A stretch of DNA of 64,000 nucleotides from a virus. The position numbers and the translations under genes are program-made. The stretch covers positions 1-64,000 of IMG/VR virus record IMGVR_UViG_3300047320_000210; one strand, written 5' to 3'. Each line of letters begins with the position of its first letter. Position 1 is the first letter of the stretch. Below the pieces are notes generated by a model. It did no database searches, was not told the origin of the DNA, and saw only the letters and a list, made by a program, of their open reading frames with translations. Shown in pieces: positions 5,038 to 18,599 of this stretch.

Positions 5038-5245
5038 CGCCGACCGCAAGGCCCTGCTGGCCTACCTGTACCGCGCGCTGGACCTGTTGCCCGGGGTCCC
5101 CGAGAGCATGCGCCAGACCCTGCGCACCTCGTGCCTGAAGACGGTCAGGCGCCTGCAGGCGCAGGGCGCGTTGACCGTCGGCGAGGCCAAACACCTGAAC
5201 GACCGCGCCCGTGACCCCACCCCCAAAGGACTGTTCCATGACTGA
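5027..5245 (+). CDS. Small hypothetical protein
   Basis: Coupled ORF within the operon. Confidence 0.6.
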   Translation: MSHDADRKALLAYLYRALDLLPGVPESMRQTLRTSCLKTVRRLQAQGALTVGEAKHLNDRARDPTPKGLFHD

Positions 5246-5654: not shown

Positions 5655-5890
5655 TTGAGTTAGGGAAGGCAGGACGCGACAAGGTCACCGGTTTTGAAGG
5701 GATCATCACCGCGCGGGCGCAGTACCTCACCGGCTGCGACCAATACAACCTGGTGCCGCCGGTGAAGGACGGCAAACTGGACAACGCGCAGTGGTTTGAC
5801 GAGGGGCGGATCGAGATCGTCGGCATCGGCATCAGCGCCGGCGACGTGGCCGGGCCGAGACCCGGCGGGCCACAGCGCGAGGCGCCGTAA
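5651..5890 (+). CDS. Conserved small phage protein
   Basis: LG...RDKVTGFEG.ITA...YLTGC.QY...WFDE.R pattern, familiar from phage hypotheticals. Confidence 0.8.
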   Translation: MIELGKAGRDKVTGFEGIITARAQYLTGCDQYNLVPPVKDGKLDNAQWFDEGRIEIVGIGISAGDVAGPRPGGPQREAP

Positions 5891-5892
5891 AT

Positions 5893-5928
5893 AAAAGAGC
5901 CCCCGGCGAGTGAGGGCGCCGGGGGCTC
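5893..5928. terminator. Intrinsic terminator between convergent operons
   Basis: GAGCCCCCGGCG-AGTGAGGG-CGCCGGGGGCTC 12-bp stem; T-tract on the minus strand. Confidence 0.8.
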
Positions 5929-6014
5929 AGTGCTTCAGGACTCACAACAGCAGCAAGCAGCCAAGGAGGGGCCACGGACTTGAGTGTAGCGCAGGGTTTA
6001 CACTTGGCCAGCGG

Positions 6015-6638
6015 TCAATCGTCGTCGGCGTTGGGGTCGCCGAGCAACAAATCGCCCTGCTTGGCCCTGGCCTGCTCCAGCTCCAGCTGTTTGGCGGCCT
6101 TGGTCCCGGCGCGCACGTAGTCGTTGACGACGCGCAGGCGATCCCCTTTGTAGAACAGGTTCGGGTTGACCCAGTAGAGGTTTTCGCGGCGCTGCACCGG
6201 GGCCAGAAAGCCTTTCACGCACAGCTCGTTGATGCCGTTGTTGTAGCTGGTCCGCGACTTACTGAATTCATAGTCGAGGTGGATCACGTCGTAGCTGATG
6301 TACATCTGATCCGGCTGGTGTTTCTGTTCCAAGTACACACCGAGGACCGCCCGAAACACGTCCTTGGCCGGCTTGGTCAGCTCGAACACCTCCATGATCC
6401 CGGCGCCGAAGAATTTGATGAATTCTTCCTTGTCGACTATCTTCTGCACCCCGATCACCGCCATGTCGCCCGCGATCTCGCCGGTGTTCTGGTTGATCAG
6501 GGCGTGGCTGGCACTGGCGAAGCCGGTCACCCGGCGGCCTTTCTTGATGGTGTGCACCAGCTCACCGGCCCACGGGTTGTCCCTGACCGCGATCACTTCG
6601 GCGCGGGAGGTGTAATAGCCCTTTTTCTCATCAGTCAC
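6015..6638 (-). CDS. repL: RepL-family plasmid/phage replication initiator (winged HTH)
   Basis: C-terminal TSYNNGINELCVKGFL...YWVNPNLFYKGDR and N-terminal IN.NTGEI, typical of RepL-type proteins. Confidence 0.7.
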   Translation of the reverse strand: MTDEKKGYYTSRAEVIAVRDNPWAGELVHTIKKGRRVTGFASASHALINQNTGEIAGDMAVIGVQKIVDKEEFIKFFGAGIMEVFELTKPAKDVFRAVLGVYLEQKHQPDQMYISYDVIHLDYEFSKSRTSYNNGINELCVKGFLAPVQRRENLYWVNPNLFYKGDRLRVVNDYVRAGTKAAKQLELEQARAKQGDLLLGDPNADDD

Positions 6639-6639
6639 G

Positions 6640-6890
6640 TAGAATCTACCCCTTGTTTTCTACTTATTCGGTAAGGCTTTCAACAACTTCGGTGCGAATA
6701 CTATAGTCAAATCCACCAAAACGGTAGAAAAATCAGATACTTTTCTACCGCCCGGCGCAGACTTTCTACGAATTTGTCTGGAACCTGGTGAGGTTTTCTA
6801 TCGGTTTGGTAGAAAATACACATGGTTTTCTACCAAAACAGTCGCAATTTCGCATCGCCACAGTGTGAATTTCACATCGACCCCCCGCGG
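6640..6890. promoter_or_regulatory. Candidate replication origin / RepL operator with TTTTCTAC repeats
   Basis: AT-rich; two inverted pairs GGTAGAAAA-N9-TTTTCTACC (6723-6749, 6808-6834) and half-sites near 6655, 6763, 6793. Confidence 0.7.
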
Positions 6891-7038
6891 AAACAAAGGG
6901 CTGCAGTGATTGCCCTTCTTAATCTTATATATAGGGGTGTTTCAGTGCCCTAACAGCCTGACGCCTCGCTGCGCTCGTTGTCGGGCCTGAAAAGCCCCGG
7001 CGCATGAAGCCGCACCGGACCTTTCCCGACCTGACGTT

Positions 7039-7305
7039 TCACAGCGCCACCACGCTCGGTTCCAACCGCGCCACCCGCAGCACCGAGTGGGCCACCGCGC
7101 CAATGTCGAGGTCCAGCGCCTCGCACAGCTTGGCCACCAGCATGAACGACGGCGCACTCTGCCCGTGCTCGATCTCCCACAGGTAGGACTTCGACGTCCC
7201 GACCAGCTTGGCCACGTCGTCCAGGGTCAGCCGCAGGGCCTTGCGCTGGACGTAGCAGAGTTGCCCCAGGTACTCCATTTCCGGGGTTGCCGGGGTGCCG
7301 CTCAT
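7039..7305 (-). CDS. XRE-family HTH regulator
   Basis: RKALRLTLDDVAKLVGTSKSYLWEIEHGQSAPS. Confidence 0.9.
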   Translation of the reverse strand: MSGTPATPEMEYLGQLCYVQRKALRLTLDDVAKLVGTSKSYLWEIEHGQSAPSFMLVAKLCEALDLDIGAVAHSVLRVARLEPSVVAL

Positions 7306-7326
7306 GGTTGTTGTTCACTCATAGGC

Positions 7327-7569
7327 TCATTCCTTTGAATCTGTTTGTTGTTGTTCGGCATCGCGCAGCGCCCGTCTCAAGTCGCCCTTGGTGCGTTTGC
7401 GGGCAAACGGGCAGCTCGGGGTGTACGAGGCATAGACCGGCCGGGTGTGGGGCCGGCGGAACACCAGGTGGGTGCCGCCGGTGATGTCACAGGTAAAGCC
7501 CAACTCCTTGGCCCAGTCCAGCAGTGCGCGCAGTTCTGGACCGCCGCCCCGCGTGACGGCGGTCATCAC
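7327..7569 (-). CDS. HicA-like dsRBD-fold protein
   Basis: LLDWAKELGF...GGTHLVFRRP...TPS pattern. Confidence 0.65.
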   Translation of the reverse strand: MMTAVTRGGGPELRALLDWAKELGFTCDITGGTHLVFRRPHTRPVYASYTPSCPFARKRTKGDLRRALRDAEQQQTDSKE

Positions 7570-8222
7570 GCACCTTTGCGGCTCTTCGCCGCTTTCTTCG
7601 CCACGGCCTGCTCGACCGCCGCCACCGTCGCGGCCGGTATCGCAGCCGTGGTCGCCGGCCCGGAACGCAAGCTGCGCGTGGCGTTGCTGACACTGGCGTA
7701 GCCTTGCGTCACCCCGGCCCCGCTGGCGGCAAAGGTGTGCGCGTGGGCACCGCTCATGCCGTAGAACTGCGCGGTGGCGAAGGCGTCCTGGTTGGCCGCG
7801 AGGAACACGAAGACCCAGCCCTTGGCCTCGGCCTGCCCCACGAGGTCGCGCACCATCGGCGCGTTGAATTCCTTGCTCTGGTTTTCCCCGCCATCGGTGG
7901 TGATGCAGACGATGACTTTCTCGGCCCAGCCCTCGGCCGCGATCCGTGCCCCTTCCACCTGCAGGGTGCGCCCGATGGCGTCCATCAACGCCGTACCGCC
8001 CCGTGGCACGAAGGTCGCCGAGGTCAGCGGCTCGGCCTCGGCCAGCGGCTTGGCGGCGTACAGCACCTGGTACTGGTCATCGAACAACACGACCGTCAGC
8101 CGCGCTTCGCCCTCGATCGCCTGTTGGTCCTTGAGGAAGGTGTTGAAGCCGCCGATGGCGTCGGCGGCAATCGTGGCCATGGAGCCACTGATGTCGAGTA
8201 CCGCGAGAATTTCAGTATTCAT
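7566..8222 (-). CDS. von Willebrand factor A domain protein
   Basis: MIDAS motif LDISGSM, GGTALMDAIG, ITTDGGEN. Confidence 0.9.
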   Translation of the reverse strand: MNTEILAVLDISGSMATIAADAIGGFNTFLKDQQAIEGEARLTVVLFDDQYQVLYAAKPLAEAEPLTSATFVPRGGTALMDAIGRTLQVEGARIAAEGWAEKVIVCITTDGGENQSKEFNAPMVRDLVGQAEAKGWVFVFLAANQDAFATAQFYGMSGAHAHTFAASGAGVTQGYASVSNATRSLRSGPATTAAIPAATVAAVEQAVAKKAAKSRKGA

Positions 8223-8509
8223 GCTTCATTCCTTTGCTCGGTGGGGAGGTGTGAAACGTCGAACAGGTGCCAAACCAAGGCCCCGGTCTGGAAGGTGGCC
8301 ACGTACTCGCCCGGGTCGTCCGGCATCGGGTTGCCGGTGCCGTGGATCATCAGCCGACGCGATTCCAGGGGGGCGTTGGTGTCACACATGCACCACAGCT
8401 GCGGCTCACCGCCCTGTAGCTGCACGTCGAGGTATTTGGCGCCTTTGGGCAGTTGCAGGTCTTGTTCAGCGGCCATCTTGAGTGGCCATTTCCAGATGCG
8501 TAGAGCCAT
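8219..8509 (-). CDS. Conserved phage hypothetical protein
   Basis: IWKWPL...LP.GA..L.VQ.Q...LW...GTG...VWHLF pattern. Confidence 0.8.
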   Translation of the reverse strand: MALRIWKWPLKMAAEQDLQLPKGAKYLDVQLQGGEPQLWCMCDTNAPLESRRLMIHGTGNPMPDDPGEYVATFQTGALVWHLFDVSHLPTEQRNEA

Positions 8510-8540
8510 GGTTCATTCCTTTGCATGGTTGGTTTGGGTG

Positions 8541-8813
8541 TTACGGGAAAATGCGTTGGTACTGCTTGGTGGGAGCGTAGAGTTTGGTAATCGTGTGGAG
8601 CTTGATCTGGCCCGGGTACAGTTCCTGAAACAGGCTGAAATCGCGGGTCGCAGTGGCCGAGGTCACCCCGAAAAAGTCGATCAGATGGCGGCGCGTAATG
8701 TGGCCGTAGTGGAATATCTGGAAGTCGATGAATCGCATCCGTTGCTCCATGGCGTAGGTCAACTTCGGTCGCCCACACGGGGTCAGGCCTACCACAACCT
8801 TGTCTATCTCCAC
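8541..8813 (-). CDS. Stand-alone CapW/BrxR-type winged-helix domain, no WYL domain
   Basis: EQRMRFIDFQIFHYGHITRRHLIDFFGVTSATATRDFSLFQELYPGQI matches the N-terminal wHTH of WYL-domain repressors; ends at RIFP. Confidence 0.8.
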   Translation of the reverse strand: MEIDKVVVGLTPCGRPKLTYAMEQRMRFIDFQIFHYGHITRRHLIDFFGVTSATATRDFSLFQELYPGQIKLHTITKLYAPTKQYQRIFP

Positions 8814-8845
8814 GAACAGTGCCTTCTATATAGTTGTCTTTGTGG

Positions 8846-9529
8846 TCAGGAAAACTGCGGTTTGAAGCCGTCGCTGCGGGTCCAGCGTTTGCGGGAGGGG
8901 TCGTAGAACGCATTCCCGGGGTTGTCGATGTTGTAGCGGCTGATGTCCGCCGAGGCGCAGGGAATGCTGATGCCGAAGAACGCCACCAGCTCGGGGCGCC
9001 CGACGTAGCCGTAGTGTTGCAGCAGGAAATCAATCATCCGCAGGCGTTGTTCGATGGCGTAAGTCAGGGGCATGGTGGCGTTGGCCTTGATTGCGGCCCA
9101 GGCGGCGTCGTGCATGCCGCCGAGGCTGTTGAGAATGCCCTCGCAGGCGGAACGGGACGCTTCGTTGTGCGGGTGCCAGTGCTGCTCGATGACGTCGATC
9201 ACCCCCGACAGCAGATAGGCGTAACCGTCGCGCTGGCCACGCACCAGGGCGAATTCGCTTTCGTTCTGCAGCAGCTCCAGACGCAGCGCCTCGGTCTGCC
9301 GGTACAAGGGTTCCAGCAGTTCGCCCATCACCCCGGATTTCGGCATCGGGTCGGTCAGGGCCTCCTGCCAACGCTGCGCCGCGCCCTTGCAGCCGTCATC
9401 CTGCCCGGCCCAAAAGTGCGCGTTGGCCTCATCGGAGCGGGCGACCTCCAGATCCAACGTCAGGCGCTCGATCTGGTCCTGCAGGGCCTGCATTTCAGCG
9501 GCCCAGTGCTCCCCAGGAGCCGCTGTCAT
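8846..9529 (-). CDS. Coiled-coil protein with C-terminal CapW/BrxR-type winged-helix domain
   Basis: C-terminus EQRLRMIDFLLQHYGYVGRPELVAFFGISIPCASADISRY...NAFYDPSRKRWTRSDGFKPQF; ATG 9529 overlaps upstream stop. Confidence 0.8.
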   Translation of the reverse strand: MTAAPGEHWAAEMQALQDQIERLTLDLEVARSDEANAHFWAGQDDGCKGAAQRWQEALTDPMPKSGVMGELLEPLYRQTEALRLELLQNESEFALVRGQRDGYAYLLSGVIDVIEQHWHPHNEASRSACEGILNSLGGMHDAAWAAIKANATMPLTYAIEQRLRMIDFLLQHYGYVGRPELVAFFGISIPCASADISRYNIDNPGNAFYDPSRKRWTRSDGFKPQFS

Positions 9530-9975
9530 TGCGGCGGGTTCCGTTGCGCTTGCAGCATCATGTCGTGCGCCCGGCAGTACGGGCAGGCCTTGTGCCAATC
9601 GGGGACGGTCGCCAGATGGCCGCTGATTTGCTCGGCCATTTCCTGCGACTCATAGTCGATCATCAGAGCGAAGATGGCCCGCCACGCCTGCAGCTGCTCG
9701 ACCGGTACCGGCACCCGCTCCCACGGGTTGAAAATCACCGGGGTGTTCACCGCGCGCGGCGCCTCGCGCTCCCACGTCATCATGTCCTCGGTGCCCTCGG
9801 CGATCAGCCGGGTGATTTCGAGGGTCGGCATCGACTTCGGATACGCCTTGTGATGCCAGCCGTAGACAAAATGCGGACAGTCGCCCTCGGCGCGCACAAA
9901 CGCGTAGACGTGGGTGGCTGCGGGGTCGCGCACGTCGAAGCGCAGTTCGTCAAAAAACGTTGAGCAGTTGCCCAT
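9526..9975 (-). CDS. Hypothetical protein with C-terminal CxxC
   Basis: Coupled ORF. Confidence 0.7.
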   Translation of the reverse strand: MGNCSTFFDELRFDVRDPAATHVYAFVRAEGDCPHFVYGWHHKAYPKSMPTLEITRLIAEGTEDMMTWEREAPRAVNTPVIFNPWERVPVPVEQLQAWRAIFALMIDYESQEMAEQISGHLATVPDWHKACPYCRAHDMMLQAQRNPPQ

Positions 9976-9977
9976 GG

Positions 9978-10370
9978 TCAGGATTCCTCGAATTCAGGGG
10001 TTTTCGGCCCGACCAGGTTGGACGGCGGACGCGGGAAAGCCACGCCAATCGGTCGCCACAGGTGCAGGCAGTAGGGGTGGAACGACACATAATCGGAGCG
10101 CGGCGGGTGGTACTGGATGACGCAGTCTTCGGCGTCCCAAAACAGGTCTTTGACGGTGCACATCACGTCCCAGCTTGGGGTTTTGCTCTGGAAACTGACG
10201 CTGACGTGCTCCCAGCCGTCCCCGTCCGAGGCCATCACCCTAGCCTTCAGCACCTTGTTGCTGCGGGGGTCGGTCAGCGGGATGAAAAACGTGCCGTTGT
10301 TGCCATGGTAAGTGGCGGAAGCCATGCGGCCAGCGGTGATACGGAAACGCTCAGGAACCTTGAAAGCCAT
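9978..10370 (-). CDS. Conserved phage hypothetical protein
   Basis: GWEHVSVS...PSW..MC.VKDLFW...QYHP...HPYCLHLW signature. Confidence 0.85.
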   Translation of the reverse strand: MAFKVPERFRITAGRMASATYHGNNGTFFIPLTDPRSNKVLKARVMASDGDGWEHVSVSFQSKTPSWDVMCTVKDLFWDAEDCVIQYHPPRSDYVSFHPYCLHLWRPIGVAFPRPPSNLVGPKTPEFEES

Positions 10371-10392
10371 GGTGATTTCCTTGTCTTTGGGG

Positions 10393-10602
10393 CTACAACC
10401 GATACTTTTCAGTGGCCTTGAGAAGCGCGTTGATCTCAGCGTCGTGCGCCCTGTCTGCCGCGCTGGCCGCCAGACGCAGGCATTCGCCGAGGCCGTCGCA
10501 ACGCGCGTGGGAGAACTCGGCAATCAGCTTGTCGTTGATCTGCAGGCGGTAGTGGTGGCGGCCTTCGGCGTCCCGCTCACCGGTGTTGATGATCGCGATC
10601 AT
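10393..10602 (-). CDS. Small hypothetical protein
   Basis: ATGA coupling; MIAIINTG...YRLQIN. Confidence 0.7.
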   Translation of the reverse strand: MIAIINTGERDAEGRHHYRLQINDKLIAEFSHARCDGLGECLRLAASAADRAHDAEINALLKATEKYRL

Positions 10603-11045
10603 GGGTGCACGACCTTGGCCGTGGCCATGATCTTGCGTTGGCGACGACGGGCCAGCCAACGGCTGGGCGACGGCAGCAGGTCGCGGAATTTCGGTTTGAC
10701 GCGGGGTATGTTGCATTGCTCGACCAGCAACTGGTGCAGGTGCGTCAGCTGATCCACCGCACGGGCGTAGGAGTCGGCCAACGCGAGACGCTTAGCCGGG
10801 GAGAAGCCCTCGTATTCCTCTTGCAGCTCGATGAGTTGCTTGGCCACCAGGCGCTCATGGTCGATGCACCGTTGCTGGATGTCGGCCCAGGCCGCCAAAC
10901 CGCCGAGCTTCCAGGACAACCAAGCACTGAGGATCAAGCCGGTGAACGGCAGGTTGGTGACGTGCATCCACACCTGGACAAACACCTGGGTCGCGATCAG
11001 GGCCAACAGCATGTGGGAAGTCAAAATGGCGCGAAGAATTTTCAA
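10599..11045 (-). CDS. Membrane protein, two N-terminal TM helices
   Basis: Hydrophobic N-terminus, basic C-terminus. Confidence 0.7.
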   Translation of the reverse strand: MKILRAILTSHMLLALIATQVFVQVWMHVTNLPFTGLILSAWLSWKLGGLAAWADIQQRCIDHERLVAKQLIELQEEYEGFSPAKRLALADSYARAVDQLTHLHQLLVEQCNIPRVKPKFRDLLPSPSRWLARRRQRKIMATAKVVHP

Positions 11046-11062
11046 GTGGTAGTCCCTTACGC

Positions 11063-11440
11063 TTATTTGAATTCCCGGTACGGCTCAACACCAAGCCGTT
11101 CGGCCAGCCGGTTCACCAACTTCTGCGCCGGGGTCTGAAACTTCAAACTGGACTCTTGGCGATAGCGCCCGTCGTGCCAGGTGACGTACTCGAAAAGCTC
11201 AAGCGCTTCGCGCAGCAAATCGACGTCCGCGTCGTGCTGGATTTCGACGCGCTCGCCAATCAGCTGCATGCGGTTGACGAAGTCATCCGGCAACCGGCTG
11301 TGCAACTGCCCGGTGTGGATGTTGCGGTAAATCTCGGTGTCGTGACCGCGATCTGTACCGGCGCCGATGCAATGACCCAGCAACTCGTAGGTGCCGTCCT
11401 TACCCTGCGCGATGTACAGCGATTTCGGGGGATTAAGCAT
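11063..11440 (-). CDS. Hypothetical protein
   Basis: ORF within the operon. Confidence 0.7.
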   Translation of the reverse strand: MLNPPKSLYIAQGKDGTYELLGHCIGAGTDRGHDTEIYRNIHTGQLHSRLPDDFVNRMQLIGERVEIQHDADVDLLREALELFEYVTWHDGRYRQESSLKFQTPAQKLVNRLAERLGVEPYREFK

Positions 11441-11711
11441 CCATGGACCCCTTGGCAAGTGATGAGATTTTGTCGAAGTCTTTGTCGTTGAGCAGATCGC
11501 GCACGACCTGCAGGGCGAAGGTCTCATCCAGCATAGAGAATAGCTCGACTGCCTTTTCCCGCCCGAGATCAGTGTCAGGCAAGTCGGATTTCAGGGCGCA
11601 AAGCCCCTCCCCATCGGGGTGCAGGAAACGAATCGTAACGGTGTGGTCGCCCTTGACGATCAGCACTTGGCCGAGGTCTTTGGACCAGAAAAGTTTGGCG
11701 AAATCGCGCAT
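11433..11711 (-). CDS. Hypothetical protein
   Basis: AAGGAG RBS; MRDFAKLF...GQVL. Confidence 0.75.
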   Translation of the reverse strand: MRDFAKLFWSKDLGQVLIVKGDHTVTIRFLHPDGEGLCALKSDLPDTDLGREKAVELFSMLDETFALQVVRDLLNDKDFDKISSLAKGSMDA

Positions 11712-11739
11712 GGCGAACTCCTTGTGATGGACCTGTCCG

Positions 11740-11928
11740 TTACTCAGGCAGCAGGGCTTCGGCCTTCTGCTCCAGGATGCGGTTGTAGATTTCTTCACGA
11801 TGGACTTCGACATGCTTGGGCGCGTCAATGCCGATGCGCACCTGCAGGCCATTGACGCCGAACACCGTCAAGGTGATGTCGTCGCCAATCTTGATGGTTT
11901 CGTTAACGCGGCGAGTCAATATCAACAC
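11740..11928 (-). CDS. csrA: CsrA/RsmA family translational regulator, 62 aa
   Basis: [42 protein letters not shown]; GTG start with GGAGA RBS. Confidence 0.97.
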
Positions 11929-11984
11929 AATCCATTCTCCATGTTTGGGTCTACTGACCCGGGATTCATACTGTAACGTTCGTG

Positions 11985-12582
11985 AGACACATAACCCTAG
12001 CAGGTAAAACAGCGGCTGTCGGGCCGAGGCCCTTGGCACGCCCTATGCTCCCACTGGCGTGGAAGCCCCTAGGTCCGGCCCTTAAAAAAAGGCGTTCCCT
12101 ATGACTCCACGCAGTGGGGATGTTTGGGTAAAAACCCACTCCCACTCCCAGCCGGCGTTCCACACTTTGCGAGGTTATGCGTTACAAGCGCCCTCGGCCC
12201 GTCGCGGCGTGTGGCAGGGGTAGGATTTGAGACAGTCAACGTGCACCTTGTCTGGGTTATGTGCGCGCCCTGCCATTGCCTTATCGACCCTTACGGGTTC
12301 GTACCACCTGGCTTTACCGCCCCCCCTCGACCAATGCCCTTGTGGGGGGTAATACGCGTCGTGGTCCAATAGGCGAACAAACGCCCCATCTTGATCCAAA
12401 CATCACGACGGAAGGCACTTCGGGGAGAGGGGGCGTAGTTGAATACGCGAAGACGATTCGCGTAGAATGGCTAACCCGGTCTCGTATCCCGCCTCTTAAG
12501 CAGAAATCCCCGAGACCTTGGCTGAAGGTACTTGCAATACCCGTCAGTCCGTAAAGCCCTCGCCTAACAGCGGGGGCTTTTT
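11985..12582 (+). ncRNA. Putative large structured non-coding RNA, about 600 nt, family unassigned
   Basis: No credible ORF; at least eight complementary helices including long-range 11988-11997:12254-12263 and 12020-12029:12192-12201; ends in a plus-strand terminator. Confidence 0.65.
12553..12582 (+). terminator. Intrinsic terminator
   Basis: AAAGCCCTCGC-CTAACA-GCGGGGGCTTTTT. Confidence 0.85.
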
Positions 12583-12908
12583 CGTTTCAAGGCAACAGGA
12601 TACGGAGCAATCGCGGCCGAATACAAGACGCGATAAGCGCATCTAACGACTTGACATTTGGCTATATGGCACTTTTATGGCGCCATTGTCCGACAAGATT
12701 TAGCCGCCAACCGCGCAAAATCAAGGGCTGAAACCGTTCCGCACCGTCGGCCGGAGGTGTCCAAATTATTTACAAAAACGTCACTCTTTTTTGCTTGACA
12801 GCGACATCGCCCCCTACCGATTTTCGATCCTTCGCTAGGCTTACTCTCAAGGCCGCGAACATCTGCACCCACCAAGACGGCCGAGGCAACCCCTAGAAAG
12901 GCCTCCCC

Positions 12909-13199
12909 ATGACCGAGTTCAGCCCTGAAGCGCTGGTGGTTTACCAGCTCGATGACATGCGTCAAGACTTAGAGGTGGTGGGGCTTTACACCCACCCGGA
13001 AGACGCAGAAACCCACGTCGCGGTGATCCCCAAAGAACGCAACCCGATCATCATTCCGATGCCCATGGCCAGCGCCCTGGCGGTGTTGCGCGAAGAAGGC
13101 AACATCGTGCACACCCACCTGTTCGAGCAGCGCCTCGATCGTCTGGCCGAGCGTGTCAGCCAGCTGACGGCGGTGCTTGCCGCGAAGAAGGTGGCGTGA
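12909..13199 (+). CDS. Hypothetical protein
   Basis: GAAAGG RBS, coupled to the endolysin. Confidence 0.7.
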   Translation: MTEFSPEALVVYQLDDMRQDLEVVGLYTHPEDAETHVAVIPKERNPIIIPMPMASALAVLREEGNIVHTHLFEQRLDRLAERVSQLTAVLAAKKVA

Positions 13200-13783
13200 T
13201 GGCGCTGATCACACGGACACCGGAAATCGACAAGATCATCAAAGAGCTGATCGGCATCGAAGGAGACGGAAATGGGCGCATCGACAAAAATGACGCCGGG
13301 GGCGCGACCCGCTGGGGCGTGACCGAAGCGGTGGCGCGCGCGGACGGTTACAAGGGCGCGATGAAAGACTACCCCCGCGACAGCGCCGAGATGCTTTACC
13401 TGCGCAACTACTTCGTGGCGCCGCACTTCGACCAGATTCTGCTGCGCAGCCGCGAACTGGCCGCCGAATTGTTCGAGATCGAGGTCAACCTGCCGCCCGG
13501 GCAGGCCGCCGAATTCCTGCAGCGCGCGCTCAACGCCCTGAACGACCCGGACGGCGACGGCAAGGTCAACTACCCGCAGCTGAAAGTGGACGGTGACCTG
13601 GGCGCGCAGAGTTTTATCGCCCTGGATGCGTTCCTGTTCCTGCGCAAGACACCGGGTATTCACTGCCTGCTGGCCCTGATCAACTCCCAGCAGGCCGTGT
13701 ACTACCTCGGGCGCACCGAAGCGCGGCCACAGAACAAGAAATACGTGTACGGCTGGACCATGAACCGCATTCAACTGGCATAA
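13196..13783 (+). CDS. Endolysin, glycoside hydrolase family 108 with C-terminal peptidoglycan-binding domain
   Basis: IEG...D.GG.T.WGVT, LQRALN, VDG.LG, YGW..NR motifs. Confidence 0.9.
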   Translation: MMALITRTPEIDKIIKELIGIEGDGNGRIDKNDAGGATRWGVTEAVARADGYKGAMKDYPRDSAEMLYLRNYFVAPHFDQILLRSRELAAELFEIEVNLPPGQAAEFLQRALNALNDPDGDGKVNYPQLKVDGDLGAQSFIALDAFLFLRKTPGIHCLLALINSQQAVYYLGRTEARPQNKKYVYGWTMNRIQLA

Positions 13784-13794
13784 GGCGACAGTCC

Positions 13795-14148
13795 ATGACC
13801 CCACCCCTTGAAGAAATGCTGCGCACGGTGCAAGAGAACCTGAGCCGTGACCCCGACTTGGCCCGGCGGCAGCAGGACATGCACGCCCTGCTGCAAAATG
13901 CGCAGACCGTGGCCGAAATCGCCACCGCTTACCGGATCGGCTGCATCCCCGACAGCGCCAAGCCGATGCAGATCACCGAGACGGAACAAGCGATGTACGC
14001 CGCCTGCCAGATGCTGCTGCAGGTGTTCATGCGCAAGGTCGACGAAGGCGGGGATGCGGCGCAGCAGTGGGTCGAGGCGGTGCTGAAAGAGTGCGCGGAC
14101 TACGCGGCCCGGCGCTACATGGCCATACAGGCGGCGGGCTGTATCTAG
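13795..14148 (+). CDS. Hypothetical protein
   Basis: ORF within the operon. Confidence 0.7.
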   Translation: MTPPLEEMLRTVQENLSRDPDLARRQQDMHALLQNAQTVAEIATAYRIGCIPDSAKPMQITETEQAMYAACQMLLQVFMRKVDEGGDAAQQWVEAVLKECADYAARRYMAIQAAGCI

Positions 14149-14151
14149 CAT

Positions 14152-14179
14152 TAATTCGTAATTCACAATTCGTAATTGC
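14152..14179. repeat. AT-rich heptad repeat, four copies
   Basis: TAATTCG TAATTCA CAATTCG TAATTGC. Confidence 0.8.
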
Positions 14180-14252
14180 TAGAAGCCGGCACGGGGGCGA
14201 GGGAGTCTACCCCTAGAATTCCCCCACCCCCGTGCCGGGGGAGTAAACTTAC

Positions 14253-14292
14253 AAGCCCCGCACGGTCTGTACAAGCGCCGTGCGGGGCTTTA
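14253..14292 (+). terminator. Long hairpin, probable terminator
   Basis: AAGCCCCGCACGG...CCGTGCGGGGCTT 13-bp stem followed by TATT. Confidence 0.6.
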
Positions 14293-14316
14293 TTCATTCC
14301 ACAGGGGAACCCCACC

Positions 14317-14985
14317 TTGTCCGCACGAATCATCCAATGCAATCCCGATGCCCTGGCACAACTGGCCAGTGAGGCGCTATGCGACGGCGCCCTGAAGGTC
14401 ATGCCCGCAGCGTTCTACCGCCAGTTTGAACAGGTTGACCTGGCAGGCTTCTGCTTAAAACAAGCGGCCTACTGCCTGCCCACGTTCGAGCTACTGGATA
14501 AGATCAACGAGCTGATCTTAGAAGTCAGCCCGACCCGCTCGGCCATCGAGATCGGCAGCGGCAACGGCGTGCTGGGGCAGGCGCTGGGCATCCCCTGCAC
14601 CGACAACTACATGCAAGCAGACGCCGGGATTCAAGCGATGTACGCGAGCGCGATGCAGCCGGTGATCACCTACGGCGCGCACGTCGAAAAGCTCGATGCC
14701 TTCGCCGCCGTCAAGCAATACAAACCTGAAGTCGTGGTCGCGGCATGGGTGACACACAAGTACAACCCCGCCGAGCACTGGCGCGAAGGCAATATGTTTG
14801 GGGTCGATGAAAAGGCGTTGCTGCGTAGGATCAAGCGCTACGTGTTTGTCGGGAACCTCTCCCCGCACGGCAAAAAGCCGCTGCTCGCCGTCCCGCACAA
14901 GCGGATCGAGGTCGACTACGTGTTTTCGAGGTCGCTCGATGCCCACAACAACGCGATCTTGGTGTGGGAATCTCGCAATTGCTAA
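14317..14985 (+). CDS. Putative SAM-dependent methyltransferase-like protein
   Basis: Motif I-like AIEIGSGNG; TTG start with AGGGGA RBS. Confidence 0.6.
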   Translation: MSARIIQCNPDALAQLASEALCDGALKVMPAAFYRQFEQVDLAGFCLKQAAYCLPTFELLDKINELILEVSPTRSAIEIGSGNGVLGQALGIPCTDNYMQADAGIQAMYASAMQPVITYGAHVEKLDAFAAVKQYKPEVVVAAWVTHKYNPAEHWREGNMFGVDEKALLRRIKRYVFVGNLSPHGKKPLLAVPHKRIEVDYVFSRSLDAHNNAILVWESRNC

Positions 14986-15003
14986 TTAGTAATTGCTAAT
15001 TAA
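14976..15003. repeat. AT-rich heptad repeat, four copies, at a convergent gene junction
   Basis: CAATTGC TAATTAG TAATTGC TAATTAA. Confidence 0.8.
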
Positions 15004-15389
15004 TTCTGATGGTTGTCCATGAAGGCGCGCGCCTCGGCCAGTAACTTGGCCCGGCGCCGCTGGCTGCGCCACGCCATGCAGTGCGCCGCTACGCGCATCA
15101 TGACAATGCCCAGCGGTGACACCACTAGGTAGCCCAGCAGCAGCGCGATGGCCAACAGGCTGAACAGCGCTTTCAACGCCCCGAGCACAATCTGCCCCAG
15201 CCCGGCGAACAGCCGGCGCACCTGCCCCCCGCCCATCCCCAGCTCGATGTCCTCGTCCACGTCCTTGACCCGGAACCGCTCGGGCTTGAACAACAGTGCC
15301 CACAGCGCCCAAGCCATTACCCGCCAATCCTTGAACAGGCTGCGGGTGGGGTTCAGCATTTGCGATTCCACGTAGTCGCTGAGCTTCAT
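15000..15389 (-). CDS. Membrane protein
   Basis: Long hydrophobic segment; GAGG RBS. Confidence 0.7.
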   Translation of the reverse strand: MKLSDYVESQMLNPTRSLFKDWRVMAWALWALLFKPERFRVKDVDEDIELGMGGGQVRRLFAGLGQIVLGALKALFSLLAIALLLGYLVVSPLGIVMMRVAAHCMAWRSQRRRAKLLAEARAFMDNHQN

Positions 15390-15643
15390 TCGAACACCGC
15401 CTCTTTGATCAGTTCGTCGCATTCAGTTTTGGACAGAAAACGCTTGACCCCGATCGGGTACCAAACCCCGTCGATGCGCACCCGAAAATACTTGTAGCGC
15501 TGATTCAGGATGATCTCTTCACCCGAGGTGTTATCGAACTCTTTGAGCGGGAATTGCTTGCTCGAAAACAGTTCGATCTTGCGTGTGTGGCCGTCGATTC
15601 GACGCACCCCTACCACAATATCCGCCTTGCGTACTTCGCCCAT
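15386..15643 (-). CDS. Hypothetical protein
   Basis: GGAGG RBS; YRVRIDG.W-like motif. Confidence 0.7.
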   Translation of the reverse strand: MGEVRKADIVVGVRRIDGHTRKIELFSSKQFPLKEFDNTSGEEIILNQRYKYFRVRIDGVWYPIGVKRFLSKTECDELIKEAVFE

Positions 15644-15812
15644 TTCAGCCCTCCCGGGCAGGGTAAAACCGAACCGCACCTATACTGAACTTTACCTTGC
15701 CTCACTTTTGGGGCAAGTCAAGCCGAGTGCAACACGCAGTCAGAGGCCGTCAGGCCCGCCGTCCACAAGGACACTGTAGCACCGGCTTTTGCGCGACTTT
15801 GGGGGCACTACC

Positions 15813-16217
15813 TTGTCTCAATCGAGTGTGATTTCACGCACAGGTCACGGCTCCGGCATGTCCGCCGAAGAAGAGGCCTTTCAGAAGTTGGCCGCCAGCC
15901 TGCTCAAACTGCCGTACAACCCCGTGGTCCTCTGCGGCTGGCGCTCCTACGCGCAATGGCTGGAGATCCTGTCCGGCCTGACCCTGGTGACCGATGGCTA
16001 CAGCGCCAAAGGCCAAGGCCCCGACGACTTCGTCAAGCTGGCCACCGCCTGCGGCTGGGTGCGTTTCGAGCTGTCGCGCGAGACCATCATGGTCCGCTCG
16101 AAAATCGCCTACACCGTCGAGCCGCTGCCCGTGCTGCTGATGCAGTCGAAGTCGATGGACCCGGACGACGTGCGGATCTACGACGCCGCAGTGTTCCAAA
16201 CCAAGCGGCGGCACTGA
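15813..16217 (+). CDS. Hypothetical protein, start uncertain
   Basis: ORF 15789..16217 leading the packaging operon. Confidence 0.6.
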   Translation: MSQSSVISRTGHGSGMSAEEEAFQKLAASLLKLPYNPVVLCGWRSYAQWLEILSGLTLVTDGYSAKGQGPDDFVKLATACGWVRFELSRETIMVRSKIAYTVEPLPVLLMQSKSMDPDDVRIYDAAVFQTKRRH

Positions 16218-16218
16218 C

Positions 16219-16794
16219 ATGGCCGAACTCTCTGATTTCGACGCCCCGGCCGTGTTGAAGAAACCGCCTGAGCCCAAAACCGAAGGCATCCAGCCCCTGC
16301 CGCCGGCCATTGAACCGGTGCTGGGCATCAGTCCGCGCGCCGTGGTCTTTGCCGAAACCGACATGGGCCGTGTGGACCATGGCCTGCAGGTGTTCATCCA
16401 CGACTTCCTGCCCAAGCTCAGCAAGGAGCAGTTGCACAAGCTGGTGTCGGCCTTGCCGGCCGGCACCCTGGAAGTGACCGGGCAGGGTTACGGCGCCGAT
16501 TTCTCGTTGGCCGACGAGATTGGCCTGCAGATCGTGGCGGTGCAGAACCTGCGTCAGCACGTTTTCCCCAACGGCCACCTGCGCGAAAGCTGCAACATTC
16601 GCGAGGCCAAAGAGGTGCTGACCACCTGCAACGTCATGATCAAAACCATGATCGACAACCACGACCGCATCATGTCGATGGAGCGCATGCGCGCCGTCGA
16701 AGCGGCCACCATCGACACCCTGGTGGAGCTGGACGACGACCTTAAAGAGCAGTTTCTGGACCGCCTGCGCGTGCGACTGGAGACCCAGTCATGA
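16219..16794 (+). CDS. Probable terminase small subunit
   Basis: Directly upstream of and coupled to the large subunit; helical, 191 aa. Confidence 0.5.
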   Translation: MAELSDFDAPAVLKKPPEPKTEGIQPLPPAIEPVLGISPRAVVFAETDMGRVDHGLQVFIHDFLPKLSKEQLHKLVSALPAGTLEVTGQGYGADFSLADEIGLQIVAVQNLRQHVFPNGHLRESCNIREAKEVLTTCNVMIKTMIDNHDRIMSMERMRAVEAATIDTLVELDDDLKEQFLDRLRVRLETQS

Positions 16795-18599
16795 CGCAGT
16801 CGTTGCGCCCCGAACTGGAGGTCTACCTCGAACGCTTGCGCATGCAAGCCTTCGACGCCCGCGACTTCAGCGGCATTCCCAAGTGGCTGACCAACCACAC
16901 CACCGACCCGATGGACCCCAGCCGCTCCTGGTCGTTTAACGAGCACGAGTATCAGCCGGACATTCTGGCCGACACCTGCCCCGACATCGCCATGCAGAAA
17001 TGTTCGCAGGTCGGCGCCTCGGAAATTTGGGTGCGCATGATGTTGGCCATGATGGCGATCAGCAAGAAGATCACCATCATTTACATCATGCCGACCTCGG
17101 CGCTGTCCAAGCGCTTCGCGCAGGGCCGGATCAACCCCGTGCTCGATGACTCGAAAACCTTGAAGGCGATGATCGACAAGGACCTGAACAACAACGAGCA
17201 AAAGCGCATCGGCCGCTCCCTGCTGTACATCAGCGGCACCTTCGGCAAGGTCTCGGCCATTTCGGTACCGGCCCAGGCGTTATTCAGGGACGAAGTCGAT
17301 TTCTGTAACCAGCGGGTTTTGACCACGTTCGATTCCCGACTGGGCCACAGCAAAGAAGGCGACGGGCTCAAACGAAGCTTTTCGACCCCGACGGTGTTCC
17401 GCTACGGGATCAACCTGATGTTCGAGGAAGGCAGCCAAGCCCACTACGCCACCCTCTGCCCGCACTGCGGCGAATGGATGATCCTCGACTACTTCCGCGA
17501 CGTGGTGATCCCCGGGTTCGAGGGCACGCTGCGGGATTTCGAGAAGTCCGACCTGTCCAACCCCGAGGTCAAGATCCTCGACGCGTTCTTTCTCTGCCCG
17601 TGCTGCCGGCACAGCCTGAAGCACAAAGACTTCACCAACCCGGAACGCCGGCAGTGGATTCACACCTACCCCGACCGCGTCGACAAGCACTCCTACCAGG
17701 TGATCCCGATTGACGTGCCGGCGATCAACCCGCTGTCGCGCACCCTGCTGCAGATCAACGACTACGACAGCAAAAAGGACTGGGTCAACTTCAAGTTGGG
17801 CTTGCCGTCCGAGGACGCGCAGTCGTCCTTCCTCGACGAGGAAATGACCAAACACGCCACCACCATCCACGTCCCGCGCCCGGAAGACGCCGACTTCAAG
17901 GGCGTGCGCCTGATGTCCGGCACCTACCTCGGGCTCGACGTGGGCAAGACCTGCTGGCTGACCATCACCCAGCCGAATGACCGTGGTGGCGAGGATGTGC
18001 TGTACCAGGAGCGCGTGCGGCAGGACGGTGACAACTACGTGGCCAAGCGCACCATGCAGCTGTTCCAGCTGTTTGGGTGTGTGTGCGGGGTGGTCGACTC
18101 CGGGCCGGACTCGACCCTCGCGCAGATGCTGGTCAAGGCCGGCGCCGGGCGATTCTACGCCTGCCGCTACTACACCGGCCCGGCCAAAAGCCTCAAGACC
18201 CTGGACGTGCTGATCGCCCGCGACGAAGAAGAGGGGCTGGTCACGGTCAACCGCACCGCCCTTTACGACAACCTGGTGCGCCGGGTGAACAAGGGCAACA
18301 CCCGCCTGACCAAGAGCTGCGGCGAGTACGACTTGGCCCGGGCGCACCTGCGCTCGTTCAAGCGGATCGAGACCCGCGACGTCGAAACCGGCGAAAGCCT
18401 GGTGCAGTGGGTGGCCACCGCCGACGACCACTACACCCACTCGCTGGGCTACGCCGACGTGGCCCGGCGGATCATCGCCGTACCACCGAAAGAGGTGGTC
18501 ATCCCCTACATTCCCACCCTCGGCCGGGTCACGTTGAAGAGCAGCGACAGCCTCGGTGACCGCTCGGACCTCTGGTTGCCGCCCGGTTTTAAACGCTAA
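16791..18599 (+). CDS. terL: Terminase large subunit, lambda GpA-like
   Basis: Deviant Walker A KCSQVGASE, Walker B FRDEVD, STPT, CPHC/CPCC, nuclease GLDVG and DDHY.H. Confidence 0.9.
   Translation: MTQSLRPELEVYLERLRMQAFDARDFSGIPKWLTNHTTDPMDPSRSWSFNEHEYQPDILADTCPDIAMQKCSQVGASEIWVRMMLAMMAISKKITIIYIMPTSALSKRFAQGRINPVLDDSKTLKAMIDKDLNNNEQKRIGRSLLYISGTFGKVSAISVPAQALFRDEVDFCNQRVLTTFDSRLGHSKEGDGLKRSFSTPTVFRYGINLMFEEGSQAHYATLCPHCGEWMILDYFRDVVIPGFEGTLRDFEKSDLSNPEVKILDAFFLCPCCRHSLKHKDFTNPERRQWIHTYPDRVDKHSYQVIPIDVPAINPLSRTLLQINDYDSKKDWVNFKLGLPSEDAQSSFLDEEMTKHATTIHVPRPEDADFKGVRLMSGTYLGLDVGKTCWLTITQPNDRGGEDVLYQERVRQDGDNYVAKRTMQLFQLFGCVCGVVDSGPDSTLAQMLVKAGAGRFYACRYYTGPAKSLKTLDVLIARDEEEGLVTVNRTALYDNLVRRVNKGNTRLTKSCGEYDLARAHLRSFKRIETRDVETGESLVQWVATADDHYTHSLGYADVARRIIAVPPKEVVIPYIPTLGRVTLKSSDSLGDRSDLWLPPGFKR

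What the first reader, a model, noticed from the sequence alone, without database searches (positions are those of the whole stretch)
11985..12582. Probable large pseudoknotted non-coding RNA of about 600 nt, divergent from the phage csrA
Seen: an ORF-poor stretch ending in a plus-strand intrinsic terminator (12553-12582). It has nested long-range helices: CACATAACCC 11988-11997 with GGGTTATGTG 12254-12263; CGGGCCGAGG 12020-12029 with 12192-12201; 12050-12063 with 12106-12118 (one bulge). A crossing helix TGGCAGGG 12212-12219 with CCCTGCCA 12268-12275 would form a pseudoknot with the first. A 3' domain adds TGCCTT:AAGGCA (12277:12412), CGTCGTG 12357:12404, TACGCGAA 12444:12457 and GGTCTCG 12478:12511. 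Most helix extensions are G-U pairs on the plus strand and loops are A-rich, favouring plus-strand transcription (one GUAA-capped hairpin reads better on minus). Known: phages carry large ornate RNAs of unclear function (GOLLD, ROOL). I see no hallmark of tmRNA, RNase P or group I/II introns. Inference: an unclassified large phage RNA, possibly working with the adjacent CsrA or other phage RNA-binding proteins.
Basis: partly seen in the sequence, partly recalled or inferred. Interest (0 to 1): 0.9.

Follow-up and report, generated by a model that had tools for sequence, protein, structure and literature searches.

The report
Plasmid-type RNA replication origin in phage
The gene-free, heavily folded stretch is not one new 600-nt plus-strand RNA; it is a copy of the known PAGEV RNA on the opposite strand with a short antisense RNA, the layout of a protein-free ColE1-like plasmid replication origin, here conserved in a family of about 84-kb Pseudomonas-type phages.

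Summary
A sensitive Rfam scan places the known PAGEV motif (RF03037, 69.5 bits, cut-off 61.1) on the MINUS strand at 12405-12153. The plus-strand terminator at 12553-12585 closes a short RNA of about 110 nt. This RNA starts from the only sigma-70-like promoter in the gap (12439-12468) and folds into three stem-loops.

The whole 564-nt block (12046-12609) is homologous to the only large non-coding region of small, high-coverage Pseudomonas plasmids in which no Rep domain was found. It also occurs at the same place in eight related phage contigs, and in an unrelated complete 17.5-kb phage. A 14-sequence alignment gives 115 pairs, 96% paired, with 35 pairs showing compensatory changes against 17 in shuffles. 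G-U patterns favour the minus strand for the long RNA.

The best reading is a ColE1/MRB-like replicon: a long pre-primer "RNA II" held in check by an antisense "RNA I". ParA and resolvase genes elsewhere in the genome fit plasmid-like maintenance.

No expression data exist, so function in the phage is inferred. This scan reached the same reading earlier on another phage genome (e1-5797006).

The parts
12046..12609 (-). Conserved replicon-like block. It is homologous in 8 related phage contigs, a 17.5-kb phage and small Pseudomonas plasmids.
   Evidence: blastn/nhmmer; alignments A2/A3
12597..12626 (-). Weak candidate promoter of the long RNA (RNA II-like): -35 TTGTAT 12626-12621, 18-nt spacer, -10 TATCCT 12602-12597. 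The predicted start is near 12590.
   Evidence: Positionally conserved weak hexamers in every lineage. Not found by the strict scan. Inferred only.
12046..12590 (-). RNA II-like long structured RNA (proposed pre-primer). Its 5' 110 nt are complementary to RNA I, followed by the PAGEV domain and then the terminal hairpin.
   Evidence: 115 pairs, 96.1% paired, 35 compensatory pairs against 17.3 +/- 2.1 in shuffles. Alifold energy -301 on minus against -271 on plus. MFE z -3.83.
12153..12405 (-). PAGEV RNA motif (Rfam RF03037), full length, with insertions.
   Evidence: cmscan 69.5 bits (gathering 61.1), E 1.9e-16. Homologues score 66-115 bits.
12439..12468 (+). RNA I promoter: TTGAAT, 18-nt spacer, TAGAAT. 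The spacer forms the covarying hairpin 12444-12464.
   Evidence: The only sigma-70-like site in 11700-13000. The hexamers are conserved in all 14 aligned sequences and, by eye, in L176, while the spacer covaries.
12475..12585 (+). RNA I-like antisense RNA of about 108-110 nt with three stem-loops: SL1 12478-12517, SL2 12520-12549, SL3/terminator 12553-12580 plus U-run.
   Evidence: The same three-stem-loop fold of 107-111 nt in all 14 homologues, with a covarying SL2 stem. Weak hit to Rfam RNAI, 25.5 bits, below the cut-off of 47.
12553..12585 (+). Intrinsic terminator of RNA I.
   Evidence: The stem varies between lineages while the hairpin is kept, and the T-run is present only on the plus strand.
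12405..12422 (-). C/U-rich strand that pairs with the invariant G-rich GCUGGGAGUGGGAGUGGG (12135-12152) and closes the PAGEV domain.
   Evidence: Helices 4 and 5. C to U changes at 5 positions give G-U only in the minus sense.
12135..12152 (-). Invariant G-rich strand, partner of 12405-12422. Candidate R-loop-forming segment (inference).
12050..12118 (-). Conserved terminal hairpin of about 70 nt with an apical GCCUUUUUUUAAGGGC mini-hairpin. The conserved block ends here. Candidate primer 3' end or origin region (inference).
   Evidence: Helices 16-18, 96-98% paired. G-U cells 13 in the minus sense against 0 in the plus sense in a strand-neutral fold.
11988..12029 (-). 12020-12031 can also form a local GC hairpin.
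   Evidence: Weakly or not conserved in relatives.
11740..11931 (-). csrA, the first gene downstream in the same orientation.
   Evidence: Pfam PF02599, 87 bits. Same synteny in all 8 related phage contigs.

Best explanation
The region is a self-contained, protein-independent replication and copy-control module of the ColE1/MRB kind.

Proposed mechanism:
- Host RNA polymerase starts a long RNA (RNA II-like, about 545 nt) near 12590 on the minus strand.
- Its 5' 110 nt form stem-loops. The middle folds into the PAGEV domain, closed by a C/U-rich:G-rich helix. It ends in a conserved 70-nt hairpin at 12118-12050.
- By analogy with ColE1, this RNA stays hybridised to the template (R-loop), is processed, and primes leading-strand DNA synthesis near the end of the block. 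The polymerase could be host Pol I or the phage's own Pol I-like enzyme.
- A strong promoter at 12439-12468 on the plus strand makes RNA I, about 110 nt with three stem-loops. RNA I is fully complementary to the 5' end of RNA II. Loop-loop 'kissing' would misfold RNA II and limit initiation, setting copy number and incompatibility.
- In this 84-kb phage the module would serve as an origin for plasmid-like maintenance, early theta replication, or both.

What is shown: homology, structure, covariation, the strand of each part, the RNA I promoter and terminator, and synteny.

What is inferred: transcription itself, priming, the R-loop, the RNA II start, and the role in the phage life cycle.
For: 1. 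PAGEV lies on the minus strand above the Rfam cut-off. Weinberg et al. 2017 (PMC5737381) describe PAGEV as plasmid-associated and lying in a predicted replication origin.
2. The whole 564-nt block is homologous to the single large non-coding region of small Pseudomonas plasmids of 4.4-16 kb. The regions under the matches are unannotated. No Rep domain was found among the 8 CDS of the 4.4-kb plasmid, whose largest CDS is 142 aa. Draft-genome contigs carrying the block have k-mer coverage up to 4565x.
3. No plasmid protein is shared with the phages. Only the RNA block is common to the plasmids and both phage lineages.
4. The architecture matches that shown by experiment for MRB plasmids: an ori of about 500 bp without ORFs, a short RNA I with consensus promoter and terminator, a long RNA II of at least 465 nt antisense to all of RNA I, and no consensus RNA II promoter (PMC3035462). 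It also matches ColE1 in having an RNA I of about 108 nt with three stem-loops.
5. Structure is conserved with covariation: 96.1% paired against 89.6% in shuffles, 35 compensatory pairs against 17.3, and 37-49% paired in slid controls.
6. Strand evidence: alifold energy -301 against -271; the C to U pattern against the invariant G-rich strand; the terminal hairpin has G-U cells 13 against 0; a U-G pair in the RNA I terminator stem (read by eye from A3) and its T-run fit the plus strand only.
7. The block sits at the same divergent junction (lysis/virion genes on one side, block then csrA on the other) in 8 related phage contigs at 77-96% identity, with compensatory changes inside the phage clade.
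8. An unrelated complete 17.5-kb phage (L176) carries the same module. No replication protein was recognised among the 14 ORFs of L176 that were scanned.
9. The genome encodes a Pol I-like polymerase with a 5'-3' exonuclease domain, a ParA-like ATPase and a serine resolvase. No integrase was seen among the ORFs scanned.
Against: - There is no transcript evidence of any kind. No RNA run holding the region was listed.
- The RNA II promoter is only a weak match of 7-8 of 12 positions.
- Replication by this block has not, to my knowledge, been tested for any Pseudomonas PAGEV plasmid. I could not test whether Vibrio MRB origins contain PAGEV, because the record was not in the collection.
- The RNA I hit to Rfam RNAI is below threshold (25.5 against 47), so kinship with ColE1 is not shown.
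- The phage has its own primase, helicases and polymerase, so it may not need such an origin.
- GC skew follows transcription direction and says nothing about an origin here.
- The plasmids share an 82-aa protein of unknown role that could be a required factor.
Confidence: 0.6

Rival explanations
1. Leader or regulator of the csrA operon. The long minus-strand RNA would be the 5' untranslated leader of the leftward early operon (csrA and downstream genes), with RNA I acting as an antisense attenuator. Alternatively the RNA would bind or titrate CsrA, as a CsrB/RsmY-like sponge does.
For: The block is always directly upstream of csrA and co-oriented with it in the 8 related phage contigs. No terminator stands between the block and csrA, and the strict scan found no separate csrA promoter on the minus strand. 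The PAGEV loops carry GGA (UGGAUCAAGAUG, CAAGGG...).
Against: The same complete block, including the RNA I promoter and terminator, stands in plasmids and in phage L176 with no csrA next to it. 48 other csrA-bearing viral loci have no block within 3 kb. GGA count is 12 against 11.4 expected, so there is no enrichment. No Rfam CsrB/RsmY/RsmZ hit was found in the window.
Confidence: 0.13
2. Incompatibility or exclusion device. The phage keeps the module mainly to make RNA I, which would shut down replication of resident PAGEV plasmids or of co-infecting sister phages. RNA II would be retained only as the complementary strand.
For: The RNA I promoter is the strongest promoter-like site in the gap and is conserved. 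The inner part of SL1 and the SL2 stem are the fastest-changing parts between close relatives, as expected of specificity determinants (PMC3035462).
Against: The 450 nt downstream of the overlap (PAGEV, the closing helix, the terminal hairpin) are as conserved as RNA I and show minus-strand-specific covariation. That is not expected if only RNA I mattered. The phage RNA I sequences differ strongly from the plasmid ones in SL2.
Confidence: 0.1
3. One reading: a single large plus-strand structured RNA of about 600 nt (11985-12582), of the GOLLD/ROOL kind, ending at the plus-strand terminator.
For: The plus-strand terminator is real. The listed pairings exist in the sequence, and the two outer 10-mers are unlikely by chance in this window. 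The plus-strand MFE z is -2.08.
Against: - PAGEV is on the minus strand.
- Conservation stops at 12046.
- The outer helices are not kept in relatives.
- The only plus-strand promoter lies 110 nt before the terminator.
- Conserved helices contain many G-U pairs that would be A-C mismatches on the plus strand.
- The minus strand folds better.
- No hit to any large-RNA family was found.
Confidence: 0.04
4. An inert relic of a captured plasmid origin with no present function in the phage.
For: The phage encodes its own replication proteins. Function in the phage is untested.
Against: The full-length block is kept at the same site in at least 8 contigs whose flanking small proteins have diverged to 54-60% identity. 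The block stays at 77-96% identity and shows compensatory changes within the phage clade. The promoter and terminator are intact in all.
Confidence: 0.05

Closest known systems
PAGEV RNA motif (Rfam RF03037; Weinberg et al. 2017, PMC5737381)
   Same: Full-length match above the gathering score, on the strand and with the helices of the family. The homologues are plasmid-borne in Gammaproteobacteria and lie in a presumed origin region.
   Different: This copy is in a tailed-phage genome. It carries insertions, including an extra small hairpin in the P1 loop that both phage lineages share and the plasmids lack. Rfam models only about 185-250 nt, whereas the conserved unit here is 564 nt and includes an antisense RNA gene. 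The family is filed as an sRNA of unknown function.
ColE1-type replicons (RNA II pre-primer and RNA I antisense)
   Same: No initiator protein recognised. A long RNA of about 550 nt reads toward the presumed origin. RNA I is about 108 nt with three stem-loops, is complementary to the 5' end of the long RNA, and has its own strong promoter and terminator. The plasmid relatives are small and of high coverage.
   Different: No significant sequence or CM match (RNAI 25.5 bits against a cut-off of 47). No rop. Priming, RNase H and Pol I dependence are untested. The hosts are Pseudomonas and its phages rather than Enterobacterales.
Marine RNA-based (MRB) plasmids of Vibrionaceae (Le Roux, Davis and Waldor 2011, PMC3035462)
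   Same: An ORF-free minimal ori of about 500 bp. RNA I has a consensus promoter and terminator. RNA II is antisense to all of RNA I and lacks a consensus promoter. Nothing but the ori is shared among carriers.
   Different: MRB RNA I is about 68 nt with two stem-loops, whereas here it is about 108 nt with three. MRB is reported as restricted to Vibrionaceae. I could not test whether MRB RNA II contains PAGEV.
R-loop origins of phage T4 (oriF/oriG) and transcript-primed origins of T7 (from my own knowledge of the literature, not tested here)
   Same: A phage origin in which a transcript that stays hybridised to the template serves as the leading-strand primer.
   Different: Those origins have no dedicated antisense copy-control RNA and no plasmid homologues.

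Membership tests
PAGEV (Rfam RF03037) | Covariance-model score at or above the gathering threshold (61.1 bits) over the full model | tested here: met
   69.5 bits, model positions 1-185, E 1.9e-16, minus strand 12405-12153. Relatives score 66.6-115.4 bits.
PAGEV (Rfam RF03037) | Consensus helices kept with compensatory changes | tested here: met
   P1, P2 and the 3' hairpins covary. Helices 7, 13 and 15 have 6/7, 4/6 and 3/4 pairs with double changes. P1 has 4 compensatory pairs within the phages.
PAGEV (Rfam RF03037) | Plasmid-associated, in Gammaproteobacteria | tested here: met
   The homologues lie on 11 Pseudomonas plasmids and on small high-coverage contigs. The window itself is a phage, which is new for the family.
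ColE1-type replicon | RNA I of about 108 nt with three stem-loops, antisense to the 5' end of the pre-primer, with its own promoter and terminator | tested here: met
   Predicted only: 107-111 nt and three stem-loops in the 14 aligned sequences (L176 read by eye), with promoter and terminator conserved.
ColE1-type replicon | Sequence/structure homology of RNA I to Rfam RNAI (RF00106, gathering 47 bits) | tested here: not met
   25.5 bits in the window and 31.5 bits in one plasmid. The others gave no hit at E <= 0.1.
ColE1-type replicon | Replication without a plasmid-encoded initiator; primer made by RNase H cleavage of an R-loop and extended by Pol I | not testable with these tools
   Only indirect evidence: no Rep domain in the 4.4-kb plasmid, and no protein shared between the plasmids and the phages.
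MRB plasmid family | RNA I of about 68 nt with two stem-loops, within a conserved 110-bp core | tested here: not met
   RNA I here is about 108 nt with three stem-loops. The description of MRB is from PMC3035462.
MRB plasmid family | ORF-free ori of about 500 bp encoding RNA I and an overlapping long RNA II | tested here: met
   The 564-nt block has no conserved ORF and the same layout. Transcripts are not shown.
Large ornate phage RNAs (GOLLD, ROOL and the like) | Match to the family model | tested here: not met
   No such hit at gathering or at E <= 10 in 11800-13000.
CsrA/RsmA-titrating sRNAs (CsrB, RsmY, RsmZ) | Many GGA motifs in loops; match to the family model | tested here: not met
   GGA 12 against 11.4 expected. 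No hit in the window.

The most novel reading that the evidence does not exclude
A family of about 82-89-kb tailed phages, and independently a 17.5-kb mini-phage, would replicate or maintain themselves as plasmids through a protein-free, RNA-primed, antisense-controlled origin. PAGEV would be the core of the primer RNA of a Pseudomonas-wide branch of ColE1-like replicons. That would be the first RNA-only replicon described in phages or phage-plasmids. It would also give the orphan PAGEV motif a function.
Probability: 0.5. Interest if true: 0.7.

Novelty: new variant of a known kind. Interest (0 to 1): 0.6.

Why it matters
If the reading holds, it matters in four ways:
1. It assigns a concrete role (pre-primer RNA) to PAGEV, an Rfam motif of unknown function.
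2. It shows that Rep-less, RNA I/RNA II replicons are common in Pseudomonas small plasmids. Ares-Arroyo et al. 2021 (PMC8683028) left open whether ColE1-like replicons circulate in Pseudomonadales.
3. It shows that tailed phages have taken up such a module and kept it under selection. That bears on how phage-plasmids arise and how phages and plasmids compete through incompatibility.
4. It offers compact 0.6-kb origins for Pseudomonas vectors.

I found no paper in the held library that links phage-plasmids with ColE1-type origins.

Tried and rejected
- The whole-window Rfam gathering scan found nothing. The hit appeared only with permissive filters on a short stretch. The genome search with RF03037 on the window's own genome also missed it, with 0 first-look candidates.
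- blastn of the gap against the INPHARED phage collection gave no match.
- The look-up of sequencing runs listed no RNA holder. The only holders of more than half the words were two rhizosphere DNA metagenomes, one of them possibly the source.
- GC skew follows transcription direction and is uninformative about an origin.
- CsrA-sponge idea: GGA is not enriched.
- Coding alternative: no stop-free frame is conserved, and the indels are not multiples of three.
- Link between PAGEV and MRB: pB1067 (NC_010733) is not in the plasmid collection. A sample of 151 Gammaproteobacteria genomes gave PAGEV only in the centre genome. The supplementary text of Weinberg 2017 is not held. The link stays untested.
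- The RepL claimed by another first-stage note at about 6.9 kb got no Pfam support in the ORFs I tried. A serine resolvase and a ParA do exist, but outside the window.
- Host or isolate context of related phages: TerL relatives of at least 63% identity come only from metagenome or SRA assemblies.
- The strand-neutral (no-GU) fold gave only a modest overall excess of minus-sense G-U (45 against 31). The signal is clear for the terminal hairpin and the closing helix, and reversed in the RNA I overlap.

Full report
**What is in the window**

The window is the first 64 kb of an 83,921-bp IMG/VR virus record with 62.9% G+C. It is a tailed phage with:
- a GpA-type large terminase and an S49 prohead protease;
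- a Pol I-like polymerase carrying a 5'-3' exonuclease domain;
- a primase, SNF2-type and RecD-type helicases, and an endolysin.

Its terminase is only about 32% identical to those of Pseudomonas phages Lana and PMBT3.

The finding lies in a 980-nt gap between csrA (minus strand, 11740-11931; Pfam CsrA 87 bits) and a plus-strand ORF at 12909 that is followed by the endolysin. This is the divergent junction between a leftward operon of small genes and the rightward lysis and virion genes.

**Checking the observation**

- The only terminator-like site in 11700-13000 is the plus-strand hairpin at 12553-12580 with its T-run.
- The only sigma-70-like promoter is also on the plus strand, at 12439-12468 (TTGAAT, 18-nt spacer, TAGAAT). 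It lies just 110 nt upstream of that terminator.
- Folding of 11985-12582 is better than shuffles on both strands, and more so on the minus strand (z -2.08 plus, -3.83 minus).

Their standing differs, as set out under structure below.

**Identity of the RNA**

A whole-window Rfam scan at gathering thresholds found nothing. A permissive scan of 11800-13000 found PAGEV (RF03037) on the minus strand at 12405-12153, full length, at 69.5 bits against a gathering score of 61.1 (E 1.9e-16). It also found a sub-threshold match to ColE1 RNAI on the plus strand at 12471-12585 (25.5 bits against 47).

[quoted passage not shown] Weinberg et al. 2017 noted that one copy lies in a predicted replication origin similar to an experimentally defined replicon of unknown mechanism (PMC5737381).

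**Relatives**

*Phages.* The minus-strand stretch 12609-12046 (564 nt) is a discrete conserved block. Eight IMG/VR contigs carry it at 77-81% identity to the window and 82-100% to one another. Two are complete at 81.7 and 84.4 kb with terminal repeats, and their terminase is 83-85% identical to the window's. The order is always the same: terminase, endolysin and the orf12909 homologue on one side, then the block, then csrA. The flanking small proteins have diverged to 54-60% identity. Forty-eight other csrA-bearing viral loci have no such block.

*Plasmids.* The same block, end to end, is also found at 62-69% identity on 11 Pseudomonas plasmids. These include P. fragi plasmids of 4.4-16 kb, pA22J2 and a P. 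saxonica plasmid; pPMA4326D is more distant, at 53-57%. The block also lies on small contigs of P. helleri (coverage 4565x), P. kulmbachensis (438x), P. lundensis and others. It always falls in unannotated DNA, and PAGEV there scores 105-115 bits.

- The 4.4-kb plasmid has eight CDS, the largest of 142 aa. These comprise a ParE/CopG pair and hypothetical proteins, with no Rep domain.
- None of its proteins has a homologue in the phage.
- An 82-aa protein is shared among the plasmids only.

*A second phage lineage.* A 17,462-bp record (L176) with terminal repeats, rated complete, encodes an SU10-like portal and capsid protein, a terminase and a RusA-like resolvase. No replication protein was recognised among the 14 ORFs scanned. 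It carries its own PAGEV (82 bits), preceded by the same promoter, three stem-loops and terminator on the opposite strand.

*Tree.* In a tree of the blocks, the plasmid copies are split from the phage copies by a supported branch (95/91). Both phage lineages share an extra small hairpin in the PAGEV P1 loop that the plasmids lack.

**Structure and strand**

I aligned 14 non-redundant blocks in the minus sense (A3).

- RNAalifold predicts 121 pairs, 34 of them with compensatory changes.
- A block-wise consensus of 115 pairs is 96.1% paired against 89.6 +/- 0.4% in shuffles (0 of 500 reach it).
- It has 35 pairs with changes on both sides against 17.3 +/- 2.1 (0 of 500).
- With partners slid by 1-3 columns, pairing drops to 37-49%.

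Strand-specific signals:
- The C/U-rich strand 12422-12405 pairs with the invariant G-rich GCUGGGAGUGGGAGUGGG (12152-12135). C to U changes at five positions give G-U in the minus sense and would be A-C in the plus sense.
- In a fold that forbids G-U, the terminal hairpin 12118-12050 shows 13 minus-sense G-U cells and no plus-sense ones.
- The alifold energy is -301 in the minus sense and -271 in the plus sense.
- The terminator hairpin has a U-G pair in its stem (read by eye from A3) and a T-run, and both fit only the plus strand.

So the long RNA is on the minus strand and the short RNA is on the plus strand.

**The short RNA**

From about 12475 to 12585 the plus strand gives an RNA of about 108 nt. 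It folds into three stem-loops in all 14 homologues, at 107-111 nt each. The SL2 stem covaries, the terminator stem differs between lineages while the hairpin is kept, and the inner part of SL1 varies fastest between close relatives. The -35 and -10 hexamers are kept in every lineage (TTGAAY or TGGACA; TAGAAT, TATACT, CAGAAT or CAAAAT). The 17-18-nt spacer between them is a covarying hairpin.

- 12050-12063:12106-12118, CGTCGTG 12357:12404 (PAGEV P1, four compensatory pairs between the window and the L001 group), TACGCGAA 12444:12457 and GGTCTCG 12478:12511 are conserved.
- TGCCTT:AAGGCA is not kept.
- The proposed pseudoknot helix 12212-12219:12268-12275 is mostly kept, but only by sequence conservation. 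It overlaps helices 12 and 13, of which helix 13 covaries strongly, so at best it is an alternative conformer.
- The two outer helices reach to 11988 and 12020, beyond the end of the conserved block at 12046. Relatives do not keep them: L058 has an 8-mer at the equivalent place and L087 none. Two or more such exact 10-mers occur in only 0.3% of shuffles, so they may matter in this one phage. 12020-12031 can also fold locally.

**How it most likely works**

The layout matches the MRB plasmids of Vibrio, where it was shown by experiment. Those have a minimal ori of about 500 bp without ORFs and an abundant RNA I with a consensus promoter and terminator that represses replication and sets incompatibility. 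They also have a longer RNA II from the other strand that covers all of RNA I and lacks a consensus promoter (PMC3035462). The layout also matches ColE1, down to an RNA I of about 108 nt with three stem-loops.

I therefore read the block as a Rep-independent replicon:
- RNA II starts near 12590. A weak but positionally conserved promoter (TTGTAT, 18-nt spacer, TATCCT at 12626-12597) is the best candidate.
- RNA II folds through the PAGEV domain and primes DNA synthesis near the terminal hairpin.
- RNA I controls this through loop-loop pairing.

Priming, the R-loop and RNA processing are inferred by analogy. None of them is shown here.

**Role in the phage**

- The module has been kept at one site under purifying selection, with compensatory changes inside the phage clade.
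- The genome also encodes a ParA-like ATPase (genome 68194-68940) and a serine resolvase (80345-81079). No integrase appeared among the ORFs I scanned.
- Relatives assemble as stand-alone contigs of 81-89 kb.

This fits a plasmid-like carrier state with copy control. It does not exclude use of the module as an early R-loop origin for the phage's own replisome.

I rate this reading at 0.6. The csrA-leader or CsrA-sponge idea is weaker because the block occurs without csrA elsewhere and GGA is not enriched. An RNA I-only 'incompatibility weapon' does not explain the conserved 450 nt of RNA II.

**Limits**

- No RNA data hold this sequence.
- Replication by a Pseudomonas PAGEV block has not, to my knowledge, been tested.
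- The PAGEV-MRB link could not be tested.

An earlier follow-up in this scan (e1-5797006) reached the same reading on a related 82-kb phage. I had arrived at it before reading that note. What is added here:
- the 14-sequence covariation statistics;
- the strand assignment part by part;
- the second phage lineage, L176;
- the phage-specific P1-loop hairpin;
- the ParA and resolvase genes;

Noticed in passing
window 1-2438 and genome 81485-83921: The first 2438 nt and the last 2437 nt of the 83,921-nt record are direct repeats at only 89.6% identity. Each holds a 395-aa ORF with no Pfam or PHROG hit (tested for the window copy). This could be a diverged terminal duplication or an assembly of two variants.
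   Followed up: partly
L176 (IMGVR_UViG_3300046665_000366) 1-17462; PAGEV at 2290-2053 minus: A complete 17.5-kb phage-like genome with terminal repeats. It has an SU10-like portal and capsid protein, a terminase and a RusA-like resolvase, and no replication protein was recognised among the 14 ORFs scanned. It carries its own PAGEV plus RNA I module, so it may be a mini-phage or satellite that depends on an RNA-only origin.
   Followed up: partly
window 12371-12385 (minus); L176 about 2258-2271: Both phage lineages have an extra 14-15-nt hairpin inserted in the PAGEV P1 loop right after CAAGAUG (GGCG-UUUGUU-CGCC; AGCGC-ACAC-GCGCU). The Pseudomonas plasmids and the Rfam consensus lack it.
   Followed up: partly
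genome 68194-68940 (minus) and 80345-81079 (minus), outside the window (L175 4194-4940, 16345-17079): A ParA/MipZ-type ATPase and a serine resolvase with an HTH_7 domain. These are plasmid-maintenance-type genes in a phage with no integrase among the ORFs scanned.
   Followed up: partly
L052 2587-2835 (plus) and homologues in L054, L057, L162, L165, L170: An 82-aa protein of unknown family is shared by all PAGEV plasmids examined (46% identity even in pPMA4326D) and is absent from the phages. It may be an accessory copy-control factor.
   Followed up: no
window 11988-12029: Two exact 10-mers complementary to PAGEV-internal segments, nested and just downstream of the conserved block. This is unlikely by chance (0.3% of shuffles) but barely conserved. 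It may be an alternative pairing specific to this phage.
   Followed up: partly
window 11929-11950 (minus): The csrA start is GTG at 11931-11929. Its GGAG Shine-Dalgarno sequence lies within AUGGAGAAUGGAUUGUG, which holds two GGA motifs, as expected if CsrA represses its own translation.
   Followed up: no
window 12640-12700: A conserved TTGACAT on the plus strand next to a conserved TGTCCGACAA motif, upstream of the rightward genes in all related phages. This may be the rightward promoter and its operator.
   Followed up: no
L170 (contig labelled Pedobacter sp.): A PAGEV plasmid block 94% identical to the P. fragi plasmid block sits on a 6.2-kb contig of an assembly labelled Pedobacter (Bacteroidota). 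This is probably contamination or a mislabelled contig.
   Followed up: no
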